Source: Escherichia phage JLBYU43
DNA: 64,000 nucleotides
Reading direction: 5' to 3' (one strand)
Sequence record: NC_105512.1
Positions 1,194 through 6,965 of this stretch are shown here, in pieces; position 1 is the first letter of the stretch; each line of letters begins with the position of its first letter. Both the position numbers and the translations under genes were made by a program. Below the pieces are notes generated by a model. That model made no database searches and was not told the DNA's origin. It saw only the letters and a program-made list of their open reading frames with translations.

Positions 1194-1409
1194 ATAATGA
1201 GTCAATCTAGGTAGGACTTGAACCTACTATCACTTGTGCGGATTTACGAGAACCATTCTTTCACTCGAATCGAACGAGCTTCTACCCTCGGCAAGCTGGT
1301 GTCCCCTCTCCACCACGCTAGAATGATAATTAATGCCTGCTCCTTTGAATCAAGAAGTCCACCCCGGACTTTGGGTCTTTGCAGTACATCACGCTGCTCT
1401 GATGTTTGG

Positions 1410-1483
1410 TACACCCACTAGGACTTGAACCTAGAACCCTCCGCTTAAGAGGCGGTAGCTCTAACCAATTGAGCTATGGATGT
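1410..1483 (-). tRNA. tRNA-Lys (CTT)
   Basis: Acceptor ACATCCA/TGGGTGT, D-arm GCTC-AATTGGTTA-GAGC, anticodon loop CTCTTAA, T-arm CTAGG-TTCAAGT-CCTAG, CCA encoded at 1407-1409. Confidence 0.6.
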
Positions 1484-1492
1484 ATAATTTGG

Positions 1493-1569
1493 CGGTACTA
1501 AGGGTAATCGAAACCCTACCTCTCCCGTGACAGGGGAGTACCATTACCAAGCCAGCCCCGATCGCATAA
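1493..1569 (-). tRNA. tRNA-Asp (GTC)-like element with degenerate D-arm
   Basis: Clean anticodon hairpin CTCCC-CTGTCAC-GGGAG and T-arm AGGGT-TTCGATT-ACCCT, 3' acceptor TAGTACC, discriminator G, encoded CCA. No canonical D-stem; only a weak 5' acceptor (GGGGCTG or GGTACTC) can be paired. Confidence 0.35.
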
Positions 1570-1574
1570 TTTAT

Positions 1575-1760
1575 TTACTCAGCTTTGAGTTTTTCGATAG
1601 CTTCCTCAACCTCTTTTAGAGCTTCACGACGCTCTACTTGACCTTGAAGTTCTTCAAGAAGTTCAGCTTTCAGAGCCTTAATAATATTACCACGAACCTT
1701 AATATTATTAATCATATTATCACGATCAGCTTCTAGTCGAGCAATTGCACGAGTTGTCAT
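1575..1760 (-). CDS. hypothetical small coiled-coil protein (61 aa)
   Basis: ORF-track ORF embedded between tRNAs; charged heptad-like sequence (ALKAELLEELQGQVERREALKEVEEAIEKLKAE). Confidence 0.4.
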   Translation of the reverse strand: MTTRAIARLEADRDNMINNIKVRGNIIKALKAELLEELQGQVERREALKEVEEAIEKLKAE

Positions 1761-3080: not shown

Positions 3081-3287
3081 TTAAAGACCGGATTCATCAG
3101 CCAGATCTAGACCAATAAGGGTGATTGCCATGATTGCAGCAGCCTGTTCTTTTTCACTCACATCTTTAGCAGACGCGATAATCTTTTCAAATTGTGATTT
3201 AAAATCTGCTACTTCAGCTTCTAAACCAGCTTCAGCAATAATGCCTTTCACCATAATACGCTGCGTCATAATTTCAGGATTTGCCAT
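3081..3287 (-). CDS. hypothetical protein (68 aa)
   Basis: ORF-track ORF; a 55-aa ORF (3284-3448) overlaps its start with ATG/TGA overlap. Confidence 0.45.
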   Translation of the reverse strand: MANPEIMTQRIMVKGIIAEAGLEAEVADFKSQFEKIIASAKDVSEKEQAAAIMAITLIGLDLADESGL

Positions 3288-3465
3288 TTGTTTTCTCCAG
3301 TTTCATTTTTAGTATTTTGCAAACAAAGTCAATATCTTCATCCGTGCCTAGATCTCTATCTTCAAGGGTTGCCTTGAAATTTTTTGTTAGTTCCATAAGA
3401 ATAACTTCCCTGGAACGACGTGTTGGCGGAGGTGGATGTCTATACATCTTAATTCCTTAATTTGG

Positions 3466-3537
3466 TGGGTCGGAGGAGAATCTAACTCCTACTCGTTAGC
3501 TTATGAGGCCACCGCTTTAACTTTAAGCTACCGACCC
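3466..3537 (-). tRNA. tRNA with CAT anticodon (Met, fMet or Ile2)
   Basis: Perfect acceptor GGGTCGG/CCGACCC, anticodon loop CTCATAA on an imperfect stem, T-arm AGGAG-TTAGATT-CTCCT, CCA at 3463-3465. Confidence 0.55.
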
Positions 3538-3546
3538 TATGTTTGG

Positions 3547-3632
3547 AGGAAGAAGTGGGAATCGAACCCACAAGGCTATATTTCAAACTGACAGATTAGC
3601 AATCTGCTGCAATACCGTTATGCTATTCTTCC
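3547..3632 (-). tRNA. tRNA-Ser (GCT), type II
   Basis: Perfect acceptor GGAAGAA/TTCTTCC, anticodon arm GCAGA-TTGCTAA-TCTGT, long variable arm, T-arm GTGGG-TTCGATT-CCCAC, CCA at 3544-3546. Confidence 0.6.
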
Positions 3633-3647
3633 GAATTTATAAGATAT

Positions 3648-3676
3648 ATTATATTAGAAATTTAGCTTCATAGCAA
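3648..3676 (-). promoter_or_regulatory. sigma70-type promoter (TTGCTA-17-TATAAT)
   Basis: Reverse complement: TTGCTA, 17 nt, TATAAT; overlaps the 3' end of CDS 3654-4172 and precedes the Ser and CAT tRNAs. Confidence 0.55.
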
Positions 3677-4172
3677 GAAAATTTTTCAAGTTTTCGGTAG
3701 ACATCTCATCCACATCTACAGGAGAAACAAATCCATTTAATTGTTTAGCAAATTTTTCACCTGCAGGATCATTATCCCCAACAGCTACCAATTTAAAAGG
3801 TAGTAATTTCAATTGCTTTAACAACGCTTTTCCAGGGGAAGAACCCAACATTGCTAGGGCTGGATAACCAGCATTATGTAATGCAACTGCCTTAAATACA
3901 GATTCAGCAATCAATACTACTTTTTCATCTCCATTGAGAGTTTCTAGTCCCCATACACACTGGGTAGTAGAATAAGTAAAATATTTAGCTTCAAAGGGAC
4001 ACTTACCATGACCTTTTGGAGCAGAAGGATTATAAGTTTGATAGCCCCTCAACATCCCAGAGAAATCATATAACGGGACTGTTAGCCATCCTTCCGGACT
4101 TAACCAGCAATGATATTTTTCTGTATCAAATCCCCTAGATAGAAGGTGCTGTGTTAGCTCATCAACACTCAT
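3654..4172 (-). CDS. hypothetical protein, possible Toprim-like fold (172 aa)
   Basis: ORF-track ORF with AGGAG RBS upstream; LVAVGDNDPAGEKFAKQL resembles a Toprim acidic motif. Weak assignment. Confidence 0.5.
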   Translation of the reverse strand: MSVDELTQHLLSRGFDTEKYHCWLSPEGWLTVPLYDFSGMLRGYQTYNPSAPKGHGKCPFEAKYFTYSTTQCVWGLETLNGDEKVVLIAESVFKAVALHNAGYPALAMLGSSPGKALLKQLKLLPFKLVAVGDNDPAGEKFAKQLNGFVSPVDVDEMSTENLKNFLAMKLNF

Positions 4173-4267: not shown

Positions 4268-5284
4268 TTACTTATTACGCATATCCATAATCATCTGGCC
4301 ATCATAACCAGTACCTACAACAGTCTGAGGAACGCCACCCTGATATTTTTCAGCGCGTTTCATATCAACTTCCAGCTGCTTCCAACGAATCATTTCAGGA
4401 GTAATGGTACGTTGCAGAGCGGCGTTAGCTTCAGCTTCTTTCTTAGCTGCGTACAGTTTAGCATCTGCGTCACGTTCGTTAGCTACTGCCATATTTTCAC
4501 GAGCAGAACGATCAGCTTCAGCTTGCTTAACTTTCTGCTGTGCTTCTTGTTCAACACGAGCTAGTTCAGCTTTTGCAGCGTTAACTTGTTCTTCACGAAC
4601 TTTTGTGTTTTGTACCTGTTCCATGATTACCGGTGGCAGAGTAATATCCTGAAGGAATACTTGCTTAACGGTGTAACCATAAGGACGCGCGTACTCTTCT
4701 ACTTCTTGCTGAATAGCGGTTTGCAGTTGAGCCTGAATCTTAGCGTCGAACAGATCTTGTGCTTTTGGTACAGACTTACCAAACTCACGAATCGTAGACA
4801 GCATCTTCTCTTCAACGTACTTGTTCAGAGCTTGATCCTGAGTACCTGCGTTAATACGGTTAATCGGTGCCTTAGAACCATCAAACTGCAACATAACAGT
4901 CAAGTCAACAGTGGATTTAAACTTATCCTGGCTAGGAACCTGAAGTTTATCTAATTTTACAGCAATATCTTTTGTACTAAAAGTATCGAAAGATGCAAAC
5001 GGGTTTACAAGATGGAAACCAGGCAATACTGGATTAGGATCTACTTTACCCAGAAATGTTTGGGTTTTAACCGTACCATCAGAAACAATAGTATATGAAT
5101 TAAAAGCTAGAATCAAGCCTGCTAAACCAACTACAGCACCAATACCCCAACGTTTAATAGTATATGAATTAAAAGCTAGAATCAAGCCTGCTAAACCAAC
5201 TACAGCACCAATACCCCAACGTTTAATAGTACGAATTACTTTCTGCTCAGAAGTCAGTTCTTTCATATTTTTAGTATTAAACAT
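4268..5284 (-). CDS. SPFH/band-7 (HflC/prohibitin-like) membrane protein with duplicated N-terminal TM segment
   Basis: N-terminal hydrophobic helix, SPFH-like core and a long coiled-coil C-terminus rich in E/A/Q/K; AAGGAAA RBS before the ATG at 5282-5284. Confidence 0.65.
   Translation of the reverse strand: MFNTKNMKELTSEQKVIRTIKRWGIGAVVGLAGLILAFNSYTIKRWGIGAVVGLAGLILAFNSYTIVSDGTVKTQTFLGKVDPNPVLPGFHLVNPFASFDTFSTKDIAVKLDKLQVPSQDKFKSTVDLTVMLQFDGSKAPINRINAGTQDQALNKYVEEKMLSTIREFGKSVPKAQDLFDAKIQAQLQTAIQQEVEEYARPYGYTVKQVFLQDITLPPVIMEQVQNTKVREEQVNAAKAELARVEQEAQQKVKQAEADRSARENMAVANERDADAKLYAAKKEAEANAALQRTITPEMIRWKQLEVDMKRAEKYQGGVPQTVVGTGYDGQMIMDMRNK
5092..5229. repeat. perfect direct tandem duplication, 2 x 69 bp, in-frame within CDS 4268-5284
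   Basis: 5092-5160 and 5161-5229 are identical (TATATGAATTAAAAGCTAGAATCAAGCCTGCTAAACCAACTACAGCACCAATACCCCAACGTTTAATAG); encodes KRWGIGAVVGLAGLILAFNSYTI twice. Confidence 0.9.
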
Positions 5285-5393: not shown

Positions 5394-5884
5394 TTTAGGT
5401 ATTTTTAAGAACTCTCGTAAAAGTCCTTAAAGATACCCAACGGTAGGTAGGGTCAGCCCCCTCAGATTAAGCTCTGCAGCCCTTCCGTCAGACAATATCT
5501 TCCAGTTTAAGTCAAGGTGACTTTGTGGTTATGTTCTCCGTATGTGAAGAACTCGGTTAGGCTTAGGTCATGACTCCCAGCCTACTGCTGCCGCTCAACA
5601 GGAATTATCGCGAATTACCTGTACTATTGGGCACCATTAGTGACATCTCTCATGTCAGCATTTCCCACTTTGTGGATAGCTTGAAAAACTACTCCGATAT
5701 GGAGAAAGAACTTCACTATCCTAGAAATACCTTCTAAAGTTCTTCTTTAGCCTGGACATAGTTAAATCGTAATAAAACTATTCAGCAGACTAGTTGGTTA
5801 GCCTGGAACCAACTACCGCGTGGTTTAGGCAGTGCGTAACTAACCTAGGAAGCTTTTACGTTAAAAGCATCAGTTATCCAGTTC

Positions 5885-5958
5885 TTACCGACCGTAGGAT
5901 TCGAACCTACATCTTCCACCAGTTACGGCTTGATAATACCAATTATACTAGGACGGCA
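5885..5958 (-). tRNA. tRNA-like element, anticodon arm not resolvable
   Basis: Good T-arm (GTAGG-TTCGAAT-CCTAC) and D-loop-like AATTGGTA; acceptor GCCGTCC/GGTCGGT pairs with one mismatch. No 5-bp anticodon stem could be folded. Confidence 0.3.
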
Positions 5959-5995
5959 GTGTTACTACATAAGTGATTTCCACACACCACTATTA

Positions 5996-6478
5996 CTAAC
6001 CAAAGTTAGTAAATTCTTTATGTAAGGATTCTCTTAATATCTTAGAGGCCTCGAAAGCCTCTTCCGCAGTTTTAAACCCTCTTTTACTGTAATTTTTTCC
6101 TTCATGTCTTACTTGGTATCTCCAGGAAGAGCCTTCCCAACTTACTCCTTTGTACCCAGAAGTATTATTGCATTGTTGGTTTCTATTCGCATTGTTTTGC
6201 GATCTAGAGGCGTCCCTTAGATTATTTTTCCTATTATTTCTAGGATTAGTATCCTTATGATCTACTTCTTCAGGCCTATATCCATAGTACATAATAAACA
6301 ATAAGACATGCAGTTGATAGGTGTCGCCCTGAAATCCCACATCTGGGTGTGATTTCTTATTATTGGCACAACACTCTTTCAAACCTTTCTTTGTTTTCCT
6401 ATATAGTACCCCATTATCAGGATCAGCTACAAAATATTTTTCAAGTATTTCTTTAGTAGGGTATTCTTTCCTTTTCAT
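5996..6478 (-). CDS. HNH homing endonuclease with AP2-like DNA-binding domain
   Basis: HNH motifs (HHKD.N..NN..NLR) followed by SGYKGVSWEGSSWRYQVRHEGKNYSKRGFKTAEEA; paralog of CDS 46900-47409. Confidence 0.75.
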   Translation of the reverse strand: MKRKEYPTKEILEKYFVADPDNGVLYRKTKKGLKECCANNKKSHPDVGFQGDTYQLHVLLFIMYYGYRPEEVDHKDTNPRNNRKNNLRDASRSQNNANRNQQCNNTSGYKGVSWEGSSWRYQVRHEGKNYSKRGFKTAEEAFEASKILRESLHKEFTNFG

Positions 6479-6521: not shown

Positions 6522-6965
6522 TTAATTAAATTCGCCAGCAACCTGAGCAGCAATGCCACCGTCGTAACGACCAGGAAACTCTTCCTTAATCGCTTTCATC
6601 AGCATACCTTTTGTAATCCCAGGATTCAACTTAACTAATTCTGCAAAGTATTTGCGAATCTCAGAATCAGATAACTGAGGCGGCAGATACTGCTGTAACC
6701 ATTTGTTCAGTATATATTCATACTGAGCAGACTGCAAGCTATAATTATCAAGGTCTTGACCGTGAAGTTTAGCTTTCGTCTGATTAATGCTTTTCAGTTG
6801 AGCTTTTAGATAAGATACAAACTGTTCAGAAGTAATGAAGTCTTTATCAACACGCTGAAGATCTCCGATTATGGTCTGGTAGCTTTTAGCTACTTCTTTA
6901 TCAGAACCATTAAACTTGGATTCCTGCAAAGCCCTACGCAAAACATCTAGAATATTCTCTTCCAT
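6522..6965 (-). CDS. hypothetical protein (147 aa)
   Basis: ORF-track ORF, protein-like composition; no confident family assignment. Confidence 0.55.
   Translation of the reverse strand: MEENILDVLRRALQESKFNGSDKEVAKSYQTIIGDLQRVDKDFITSEQFVSYLKAQLKSINQTKAKLHGQDLDNYSLQSAQYEYILNKWLQQYLPPQLSDSEIRKYFAELVKLNPGITKGMLMKAIKEEFPGRYDGGIAAQVAGEFN

What the first reader, a model, noticed from the sequence alone, without database searches (positions are those of the whole stretch)
1493..1569. tRNA-Asp-like gene with a degenerate D-arm
The element has a textbook anticodon hairpin with loop CTGTCAC (anticodon GTC), a canonical T-arm, discriminator and encoded CCA, like its tRNA neighbours. No D-stem can be formed and the 5' acceptor strand pairs only weakly. 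It resembles D-arm-lacking mitochondrial tRNAs, or may be a decaying tRNA gene.
Basis: seen in the sequence. Interest (0 to 1): 0.45.

Follow-up and report, generated by a model that had tools for sequence, protein, structure and literature searches.

The report
Hybrid, broken tRNA-Asp gene in phage
This is a dead tRNA-Asp gene in a T5-like phage, made when two different versions of the gene recombined inside their identical anticodon arm, so the two ends of the molecule no longer pair; it is an ordinary by-product of phage mosaicism, not a new kind of tRNA.

Summary
It has a perfect anticodon arm (GTC), a T-arm, discriminator G and CCA. ARAGORN's default mode does not call it, and Rfam's tRNA model gives 25.6 bits (gathering 29). 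The cause is neither point-mutation decay nor a mitochondrial-style missing D-arm. T5-like phages carry two tRNA-Asp alleles at this site. Allele A (about 349 records, including T5) has a naturally G·U-rich D-stem. Allele B (about 66 records) sits directly behind an HNH homing-endonuclease gene. The window's element is, base for base, the 5' part of A, then a 21-nt block identical in both alleles (TACTCCCCTGTCACGGGAGAG), then the 3' part of B. Its acceptor strands therefore come from different alleles and mismatch at 3 of 7 positions (pairing probability 0, against 0.86-0.999 per pair in both parents). Only two other sequenced phages, smaug and phagemcphageface, carry the same hybrid; the reciprocal hybrid was never found. 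smaug has 24 called tRNAs and no tRNA-Asp among them. The best reading is a recombinant tRNA pseudogene, probably a side product of endonuclease-driven exchange. Interest is low to moderate.

The parts
1490..1565 (-). Hybrid tRNA-Asp(GTC) pseudogene, 76 nt including the encoded CCA
   Evidence: ARAGORN default gives no call. RF00005 scores 25.6 bits against a 29-bit gathering score. Base-for-base it is A 5' part + shared block + B 3' part.
1541..1565 (-). Allele-A-derived 5' part: acceptor 5' strand GCGATCG (1565-1559), G8 G9, and a D-arm GCTG/GCTTGGTAA/TGG(T) whose last stem base falls in the shared block
   Evidence: Identical to GRNsp8/SuperGirl tRNA-Asp (L001, L002 636-...). The D-stem G.U, C-G, U.G, G.U is the same as in intact allele A.
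1520..1540 (-). 21-nt block TACTCCCCTGTCACGGGAGAG, identical in alleles A and B. It holds the whole anticodon arm (anticodon GTC at 1531-1529) and is the inferred crossover zone.
   Evidence: It is the longest identical A/B block, 21 nt. These columns are invariant in alignment A1.
1490..1519 (-). Allele-B-derived 3' part: variable region, T-arm AGGGT-TTCGATT-ACCCT (1517-1501, with U53-A61), acceptor 3' strand TAGTACC (1500-1494), discriminator G (1493), CCA (1492-1490)
   Evidence: Identical to PMBT22/1Sgal2PP tRNA-Asp. Query positions 33-86 are 100% identical to dozens of allele-B phages.
1566..1574 (-). 9-nt spacer between the stop codon of the upstream ORF and the hybrid. In allele-B phages the 582-bp HNH endonuclease gene starts here: its ATG overlaps the first two bases (GC) of the hybrid at 1565-1564.
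   Evidence: Sequence of L003 600-1370 compared with the window.
1575..1760 (-). Upstream neighbour: small conserved ORF (DUF7337, homologous to T5.068). Context only.
   Evidence: Pfam PF24026, E = 1.2e-28. ORF list. T5 layout.
1407..1483 (-). Downstream neighbour: intact tRNA-Lys(ctt), 6 nt after the hybrid's CCA. Context only.
   Evidence: ARAGORN; RF00005 63.9 bits.

Best explanation
The element is a recombinant (hybrid) tRNA-Asp pseudogene. T5-like phages carry one of two diverged tRNA-Asp alleles at this site. Allele A is the T5 type and has no adjacent endonuclease gene. Allele B is preceded, and overlapped by 10 nt, by a NUMOD4+HNH homing-endonuclease gene. The two alleles differ almost everywhere except for a 21-bp block covering the anticodon arm. 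A crossover or gene-conversion boundary inside that block joined the 5' part of A to the 3' part of B, leaving no endonuclease gene. The 5' and 3' acceptor strands now come from different alleles and mismatch at 3 of 7 positions, so the acceptor helix cannot form. That helix is needed for RNase P processing, for protection of the CCA end, and for charging by AspRS. The locus is therefore most probably a dead gene of recent origin, since neither half has acquired any further substitution.

Shown: the hybrid composition, the mismatched acceptor stem, the failure of the tRNA detectors, the rarity of the hybrid, the linkage of allele B to the HNH gene, and the absence of another called tRNA-Asp in the smaug sequence scanned. 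Inferred: loss of function, and that the exchange came from repair of an endonuclease-induced break during mixed infection. That inference rests on analogy with T4 SegB, which targets the T-arm motif of tRNA genes (PMC2330249).
For: The alignment of the window with GRNsp8/SuperGirl (A) and PMBT22 (B) shows the switch of parentage exactly at the shared anticodon arm. A script confirms the 5' part equals A and the 3' part equals B, with a 21-nt identical block between them.

Acceptor pairs are G-C, C*C, G*A, A-U, U.G, C*A, G.U. Acceptor base-pair probabilities are 0 in the hybrid, against 0.86-0.999 per pair in A and B. RF00005 scores B at 64.7 bits, A at 44.5-46.8 and the hybrid at 25.6, below the 29-bit gathering score. 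ARAGORN default calls A and B but not the hybrid.

Phage database counts are about 349 records for A, about 66-70 for B, 4 for the hybrid (smaug and phagemcphageface, each in GenBank and RefSeq), and no full-length reciprocal hybrid. In IMG/VR the counts are A 15, B 2, hybrid 0 and reciprocal 0; the metagenome scan found no hybrid.

The ORF upstream of allele B is a NUMOD4+HNH_3 protein. Its orthologue (>=80% identity) is in about 58 records, and it overlaps tRNA-Asp in every spread-sampled record at >=98% identity where a tRNA-Asp is annotated. The window's flanks are about 100% identical to the HNH+/allele-B phages 1Sgal2PP and PMBT22 on both sides, and only a patch of about 40-60 nt is A-type.

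smaug has 24 called tRNAs and none is Asp, so the hybrid is not backed up by a second copy there. T5's curated record already has a pseudo tRNA-Gln overlapped by the F-TflII gene, which is a precedent for damaged tRNA genes next to these endonuclease genes.
Against: No expression or processing data could be consulted, so loss of function is inferred from structure alone. Shifted registers give a marginal cloverleaf with a 6/7 acceptor stem: Infernal at 1493-1559, and ARAGORN at 1491-1560 with -ps80 or -mt.

The direction of the event cannot be resolved from the flanks. An A-type recipient may have been repaired from a B donor, or a B-type phage may have lost the HNH gene by exchange with an A phage. 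The cleavage site of this HNH paralogue is unknown: T5 F-TflII is only 42% identical, and the 2004 paper describing the T5 enzymes is not held. So the involvement of the endonuclease is circumstantial.
Confidence: 0.85

Rival explanations
1. It is a functional, structurally reduced tRNA-Asp. It would be read in a shifted register (5' end at G1559 or C1560), with positions 8-9 missing and a 3-bp D-stem with a 5-nt loop, functionally comparable to D-arm-reduced organellar tRNAs.
For: Infernal aligns 1493-1559 with acceptor GGGGCUG/UAGUACC: 6 of 7 pairs, of which 2 are G.U and one position is G*A. ARAGORN with -ps80 or in mitochondrial modes calls a 70-nt tRNA-Asp. The anticodon loop, G73 and the GG in the D-loop are retained. 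The same hybrid persists in two phage lineages.
Against: The two programs choose different registers, and ARAGORN's pairs the discriminator. The score is below the Rfam gathering score. The shifted cloverleaf is 5 kcal/mol worse than the MFE fold, and the fold is no better than shuffled sequence (z = 0.53). A 6/7 match in one of about 20 registers is expected by chance roughly a quarter of the time (own estimate). The sequence is fully explained as two unaltered halves, with no compensating change. The annotators of smaug and phagemcphageface called no tRNA there.
Confidence: 0.05
2. It is a tRNA gene decaying by accumulated point mutations and small deletions.
For: The detectors fail and the acceptor stem is mismatched.
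Against: Every base 5' of the junction equals allele A and every base 3' of it equals allele B, with zero private substitutions. Independent point mutations cannot convert 30 consecutive nucleotides into another extant allele.
Confidence: 0.02
3. It is an assembly artefact: a chimeric contig from a mixed lysate holding an A-type and a B-type phage, joined through the 21-nt repeat.
For: The junction is a 21-nt exact repeat between two co-circulating alleles. Short-k assemblers can switch paths at such repeats.
Against: The same junction occurs in three separately assembled genomes with two quite different flank backgrounds. Ordinary reads of 100 nt or more span a 21-nt repeat. The window lacks the whole 582-bp HNH gene, and its flanks are otherwise colinear.
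Confidence: 0.03
4. The hybrid is transcribed and kept as a stable, uncharged tRNA-like RNA with a function of its own. It might be a decoy for anticodon nucleases, or a 3' stabiliser of the upstream DUF7337 mRNA, like the stable tRNA-like RNAs annotated in T5.
For: T5's curated record lists stable tRNA-like RNAs of unknown function in the same region: RNA1, RNA2 and RNA3. The anticodon arm and T-arm are intact. Phage tRNAs are known counter-defence tools (PMC10264068, PMC11464382).
Against: There is no conservation signal beyond identity by descent. Only 3 genomes among more than 400 relatives carry it. No homology to the T5 stable RNAs was tested or seen. The fold is not unusually stable.
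Confidence: 0.05

Closest known systems
tRNA-Asp(GUC) of bacteriophage T5 and most T5-like phages ('allele A'; T5 AY543070 33578-33654)
   Same: Same locus, directly after the DUF7337/T5.068 ORF. The first 46 nt are identical: acceptor 5' strand, G8, the G.U-rich D-arm and the whole anticodon arm.
   Different: The last 30 nt (variable region, T-arm, acceptor 3' strand) belong to another allele, so the acceptor stem is lost. Allele A scores 44.5-46.8 bits and is called by ARAGORN; the hybrid scores 25.6 bits and is not.
HNH-linked tRNA-Asp of a subset of Epseptimavirus phages ('allele B'; e.g. PMBT22, 1Sgal2PP, S113, atrejo)
   Same: The last 51 nt (anticodon arm to CCA) are identical, and the flanking DNA is about 100% identical on both sides.
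   Different: The window lacks the 582-bp NUMOD4+HNH gene and the matching 5' strand GGTACTA with its canonical D-arm. Allele B scores 64.7 bits.
Homing-endonuclease-driven exchange in phage tRNA clusters (T4 SegB; T5 F-TflI/II/IV)
   Same: A free-standing endonuclease gene sits in a tRNA cluster, and the allele linked to it differs from the allele in endonuclease-free relatives. SegB recognises the T-arm motif GGTTCRANTCC (PMC2330249). Allele A has that motif, while allele B has an unusual U53-A61 T-stem end. T5 has a pseudo tRNA-Gln overlapped by the F-TflII gene.
   Different: Nothing is known about the target of this particular HNH, which is only 42% identical to F-TflII. The window shows a by-product without the endonuclease gene, not a homing event itself.
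D-arm-lacking mitochondrial tRNAs
   Same: Detected only by mitochondrial or relaxed search modes, with a weak D region.
   Different: Mitochondrial D-armless tRNAs keep a sound acceptor stem and replace the D-arm by a short loop. Here the D-arm is present at full length and the acceptor stem is the broken part. The context is a phage, not an organelle.

Membership tests
Canonical tRNA (Rfam RF00005 / bacterial cloverleaf) | 7-bp acceptor stem formed by the 5' and 3' ends | tested here: not met
   In the gene register the pairs are G-C, C*C, G*A, A-U, U.G, C*A, G.U. The pairing probability is 0.
Canonical tRNA (Rfam RF00005 / bacterial cloverleaf) | Score at or above the curated gathering threshold, and a call by a standard tRNA finder | tested here: not met
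   25.6 bits against 29. ARAGORN default and -ps give no call.
Canonical tRNA (Rfam RF00005 / bacterial cloverleaf) | D-arm (3-4 bp stem, loop with GG) | tested here: met
   The stem is G.U, C-G, U.G, G.U with a 9-nt loop containing GG. It is identical to the D-arm of intact allele A, weak but accepted.
Canonical tRNA (Rfam RF00005 / bacterial cloverleaf) | Anticodon arm: 5-bp stem and 7-nt loop with U33 | tested here: met
   CUCCC/CUGUCAC/GGGAG, anticodon GUC.
Canonical tRNA (Rfam RF00005 / bacterial cloverleaf) | T-arm with a TTCRA loop, discriminator and CCA | tested here: met
   AGGGU/UUCGAUU/ACCCU, then G73 and CCA. The 53-61 pair is U-A instead of the usual G-C, as in allele B.
D-arm-lacking (mitochondrial-type) tRNA | D-arm replaced by a short connector while the acceptor stem stays intact | tested here: not met
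   The D-arm is present at full length and the acceptor stem is broken. ARAGORN -mt calls it only in a shifted register with a G.A mismatch and the discriminator paired.
Recombinant hybrid gene at a homing-endonuclease-associated mosaic boundary | Each side of a junction is identical to a different extant allele, with an identical block at the junction | tested here: met
   5' 25 nt equal A, then a 21-nt shared block, then 3' 30 nt equal B.
Recombinant hybrid gene at a homing-endonuclease-associated mosaic boundary | One parental allele is physically linked to an endonuclease gene that is absent from the other | tested here: met
   NUMOD4+HNH_3 ORF overlaps the 5' end of allele B. The orthologue is in about 58 records against about 66 with allele B. 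Allele-A loci have no such ORF.
Recombinant hybrid gene at a homing-endonuclease-associated mosaic boundary | The endonuclease cleaves the endonuclease-free allele near the junction | not testable with these tools
   No biochemical data exist for this paralogue, and the 2004 paper on the T5 enzymes is not held.
T5 stable tRNA-like RNAs (RNA1, RNA2, RNA3) | Accumulation of a stable processed transcript | not testable with these tools
   Only the annotation in AY543070 was seen. No expression data were available for the window's phage.

The most novel reading that the evidence does not exclude
The hybrid is not junk but a selected outcome. Repair of an HNH-induced break in allele A, primed from the 21-bp anticodon-arm homology, would recurrently and directionally create A5'/B3' hybrids. 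Such hybrids are immune to the endonuclease because they carry the B-type T-arm, yet they stay free of the endonuclease gene. The resulting RNA would persist as a stable uncharged tRNA-like molecule, for example a decoy for anticodon nucleases. The occurrence in two different flank backgrounds and the absence of the reciprocal hybrid are compatible with this reading but do not prove it.
Probability: 0.07. Interest if true: 0.55.

Novelty: new member of a known kind. Interest (0 to 1): 0.22.

Why it matters
Mainly for annotation and for interpreting phage tRNA sets. The locus should be labelled as a tRNA-Asp pseudogene (a hybrid), not as a novel D-armless tRNA. As far as the window shows, and as shown for its relative smaug, this phage lacks its own tRNA-Asp. 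The locus is also a base-resolved example of how exchange between an endonuclease-linked allele and an endonuclease-free allele can end inside a gene on only 21 bp of identity and destroy it. That bears on the cost of homing-endonuclease traffic in phage tRNA clusters, which are now viewed as counter-defence loci. It does not open a new question.

Tried and rejected

(2) Thermodynamic folding of the 80-nt region gave an MFE of -23.7 kcal/mol with z = 0.53. There is no cloverleaf and the fold is no better than shuffles.

I did not accept this as evidence of function.

(4) Search for the reciprocal B5'/A3' hybrid: none found in the phage records or IMG/VR.

(5) Search for more hybrids in IMG/VR (52-mer and 38-mer) and in metagenome contigs: none. 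Positive controls found A 15 times and B 2 times.

(6) An attempt to infer the direction of the exchange from flanking variants was not resolvable. The upstream flank is slightly closer to B-type 1Sgal2PP (0 differences in about 250 nt) than to A-type SuperGirl (4 differences), but HNH+ and HNH- siblings can share flanks. A wider multi-genome alignment was too disrupted by indels to use.

(7) Literature: the primary paper on F-TflI/II/IV is not held. Full-text searches found no description of hybrid tRNA genes in T5-like phages.

(8) I first took the HNH for F-TflII because one record annotates it so. This is rejected as an identity, since T5 F-TflII is only 42% identical and lies next to tRNA-Gln.

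Full report
**What is at the coordinates.** Read on the minus strand, the region is ...GAGTAA ATAAATTAT GCGATCG GG GCTG GCTTGGTAA TGGT A CTCCC CTGTCAC GGGAG AGGT AGGGT TTCGATT ACCCT TAGTACC G CCA AATTAT, followed by tRNA-Lys. The element lies in a run of 11 ARAGORN and 12 Rfam tRNA genes on the same strand. Neither tool calls it at standard thresholds. With permissive settings RF00005 aligns 1493-1559 at 25.6 bits (gathering score 29), and only by deleting positions 8-9, shortening the D-arm and accepting a G·A pair in the acceptor stem. The minimum-free-energy fold is not a cloverleaf and is no more stable than shuffled sequence (z = 0.53).

**What it is.** The window belongs to a T5-like phage (Demerecviridae, Epseptimavirus-like). 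More than 400 phage records match this stretch, and most annotate a tRNA-Asp at the homologous place. Aligning the window with annotated relatives shows two quite different tRNA-Asp alleles at this locus.

- **Allele A** (GRNsp8, SuperGirl, and T5 itself at AY543070 33578-33654) is 77 nt long. Its acceptor stem is GCGATCG/CGGTCGC, it has G8, and its D-stem is made of G·U, C-G, U·G and G·U. ARAGORN calls it and it scores 44.5-46.8 bits.
- **Allele B** (PMBT22, 1Sgal2PP and others) is 75 nt long. Its acceptor stem is GGTACTA/TAGTACC, its D-arm is canonical, and it scores 64.7 bits. It lies immediately behind, and overlaps by 10 nt, a 193-codon ORF with NUMOD4 and HNH_3 domains.

The alleles share only one long identical block, the 21 nt TACTCCCCTGTCACGGGAGAG that make up the anticodon arm. 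The window's element is exactly the 25 A-specific 5' nucleotides, then this block, then the 30 B-specific 3' nucleotides, with no private substitution.

**Consequence for structure.** In the hybrid the acceptor strands GCGATCG and TAGTACC come from different genes. They give G-C, C·C, G·A, A-U, U·G, C·A and G·U, which is three mismatches and two wobbles. The computed pairing probability of these seven pairs is 0, against 0.86-0.999 per pair in both parents.

ARAGORN in bacterial mode (default and -ps) finds nothing. With -ps80 or in mitochondrial modes it reports a 70-nt 'tRNA-Asp' at 1491-1560. That register differs from Infernal's, pairs the discriminator, and contains a G·A mismatch and a 3-bp D-stem. 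A 6/7 complementary register among about 20 possible ones is not unlikely by chance (own estimate, about 0.25). I do not take these relaxed calls as evidence of function.

**Distribution.**

| Form | Phage records (of 50,697) | IMG/VR diagnostic 38/39-mer |
|---|---|---|
| Allele A, full length | about 349 | 15 |
| Allele B, full length | about 66; 70 hits include the 4 hybrid records | 2 |
| A5'/B3' hybrid | 4, i.e. smaug and phagemcphageface, each in GenBank and RefSeq; no tRNA annotated there | 0 (52-mer also 0) |
| Reciprocal B5'/A3' hybrid | 0 full length | 0 |

The metagenome scan for the hybrid also found nothing. smaug and phagemcphageface are identical to each other here, and no other phage in the collection shares their flanks at more than about 85% identity. 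They also differ strongly from the window in the upstream ORF and in the tRNA-Lys allele. The hybrid therefore exists in two flank backgrounds, either by independent formation or by transfer. Any crossover inside the 21-bp block gives the same product, so the two cannot be told apart. smaug has 24 called tRNAs and none for Asp: the tRNA-cluster half of the genome (70,000-112,590) and the first 50 kb were scanned, while 50,001-69,999 was not.

**Mechanism.** Shown: the window's flanks are about 100% identical to the HNH-carrying allele-B phages 1Sgal2PP and PMBT22 on both sides. A patch of only about 40-60 nt of A-type sequence stands where those phages have the HNH gene plus the B 5' half. The HNH orthologue (>=80% identity) occurs in about 58 records, and it overlaps tRNA-Asp in every spread-sampled record at >=98% identity where a tRNA-Asp is annotated. 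mar003J3 has the HNH gene intact but unannotated, and KKP_3822 keeps only its last codons.

Inferred: the hybrid arose in a mixed infection of an A-type and an HNH+/B-type phage. One route is repair of an endonuclease break in allele A, using the 21-bp homology on the left and the conserved tRNA-Lys flank on the right; this copies only the B 3' half and no HNH gene. The other route is loss of the HNH gene from a B-type genome through a short conversion patch from an A-type genome. The flanks do not decide between the two.

T4 SegB supplies the analogy. It is a homing endonuclease in a tRNA cluster that recognises the T-arm motif GGTTCRANTCC and drives preferential inheritance of its own tRNA region (PMC2330249). 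Allele A carries that motif (GGTTCGAACCC), whereas allele B ends its T-stem with an unusual U53-A61 pair. That would fit an endonuclease-immune allele, but this is speculation. The HNH here is a paralogue of T5 F-TflII, not its orthologue: it is 42% identical, and F-TflII lies next to tRNA-Gln. In T5's curated record the tRNA-Gln(CUG) overlapped by the F-TflII gene is itself flagged as a pseudogene, and several stable tRNA-like RNAs of unknown function are annotated in the cluster. Damaged or odd tRNA-like genes beside these endonuclease genes are therefore already on record.

**Rivals.** Four alternatives were considered.

- A functional reduced tRNA in a shifted register: about 0.05.
- Decay by point mutation: about 0.02, effectively refuted by the base-for-base parentage.
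- An assembly chimera through the 21-nt repeat: about 0.03. Three assemblies and two flank backgrounds argue against it.
- A stable tRNA-like RNA with a function of its own: about 0.05.

None of these is supported by a positive result here. The first and last can be settled only with RNA data.

**Comparison and novelty.** The element is not a member of the canonical tRNA family by the family's own criteria: the acceptor stem, the gathering score and the standard detectors are all not met. It is not a D-armless tRNA either. It is a hybrid pseudogene of two known tRNA-Asp alleles, a new instance of a known kind of event, namely gene disruption at a mosaic boundary associated with a homing endonuclease. 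I found no paper describing this particular hybrid. Interest is low to moderate. It is a clean, base-resolved example with some value for annotation and for thinking about the cost of endonuclease traffic in phage tRNA clusters, but it would not surprise a specialist.

Noticed in passing
window 5886-5957 (-), with ORF 5996-6478 (-): A tRNA is called only by Rfam (35.5 bits) and missed by ARAGORN. Its anticodon arm cannot be aligned to the model. The homologue in smaug is annotated 'tRNA-OTHER' (ARAGORN: SeC, anticodon tca), and the two differ mainly inside the anticodon arm. An HNH_3 endonuclease ORF lies directly upstream, the same endonuclease-then-tRNA layout as at the allele-B tRNA-Asp.
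   Followed up: partly
L029 (T5 AY543070) 2345-2420 and 2398-2979; also 3285-3645, 5839-6084, 6878-6950: In T5's curated record, tRNA-Gln(CUG) is flagged as a pseudogene and is overlapped by hegD (F-TflII). The cluster also holds stable RNAs and 'tRNA-like stable RNAs with unknown functions' (RNA1, RNA2, RNA3, RNAI, III, IV, 2H). I did not check whether the T5 pseudo-tRNA-Gln is also a hybrid.
   Followed up: no
window 1194-1406 (-): The spacer between tRNA-Lys and tRNA-Gly contains T-arm-like motifs (GTAGGTTCAAGTCCTAC and GCTCGTTCGATTCGAG) but gives no Rfam hit at E<=1. It may correspond to the T5 RNA2/RNAIV region or to tRNA relics. A 56-aa ORF (1244-1414) also overlaps it.
   Followed up: no
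window 1407-1483 (-): In tRNA-Lys(ctt), the first pair of the anticodon stem is mismatched in GRNsp8, which has the same sequence as the window here (...GCGGAGGG...). In PMBT22 (...GCGGTAGG...) it is paired. The tRNA still scores 63.9 bits in the window.
   Followed up: no
L011 (KKP_3822) 560-976: An allele-B-like tRNA-Asp variant (96% identity, with one extra base) is preceded not by the HNH gene but by an unrelated, G-rich stretch of about 340 nt. Only the last few HNH codons (AAAAAGTTAA) remain. So allele B can outlive its endonuclease gene.
   Followed up: partly
L002/L009 (SuperGirl) 712-789 of L002: SuperGirl has an extra insert of about 70 nt between tRNA-Asp (allele A) and tRNA-Lys that is absent from the window, GRNsp8 and the allele-B phages. 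It is another small indel polymorphism at this mosaic hot spot.
   Followed up: no
window 3654-4172 (-) and 4268-5284 (-): A Toprim-domain ORF (172 aa, homologous in position to T5.076) lies next to tRNA-Ser, and an SPFH/Band-7 ORF (338 aa) lies inside the tRNA region.
   Followed up: no
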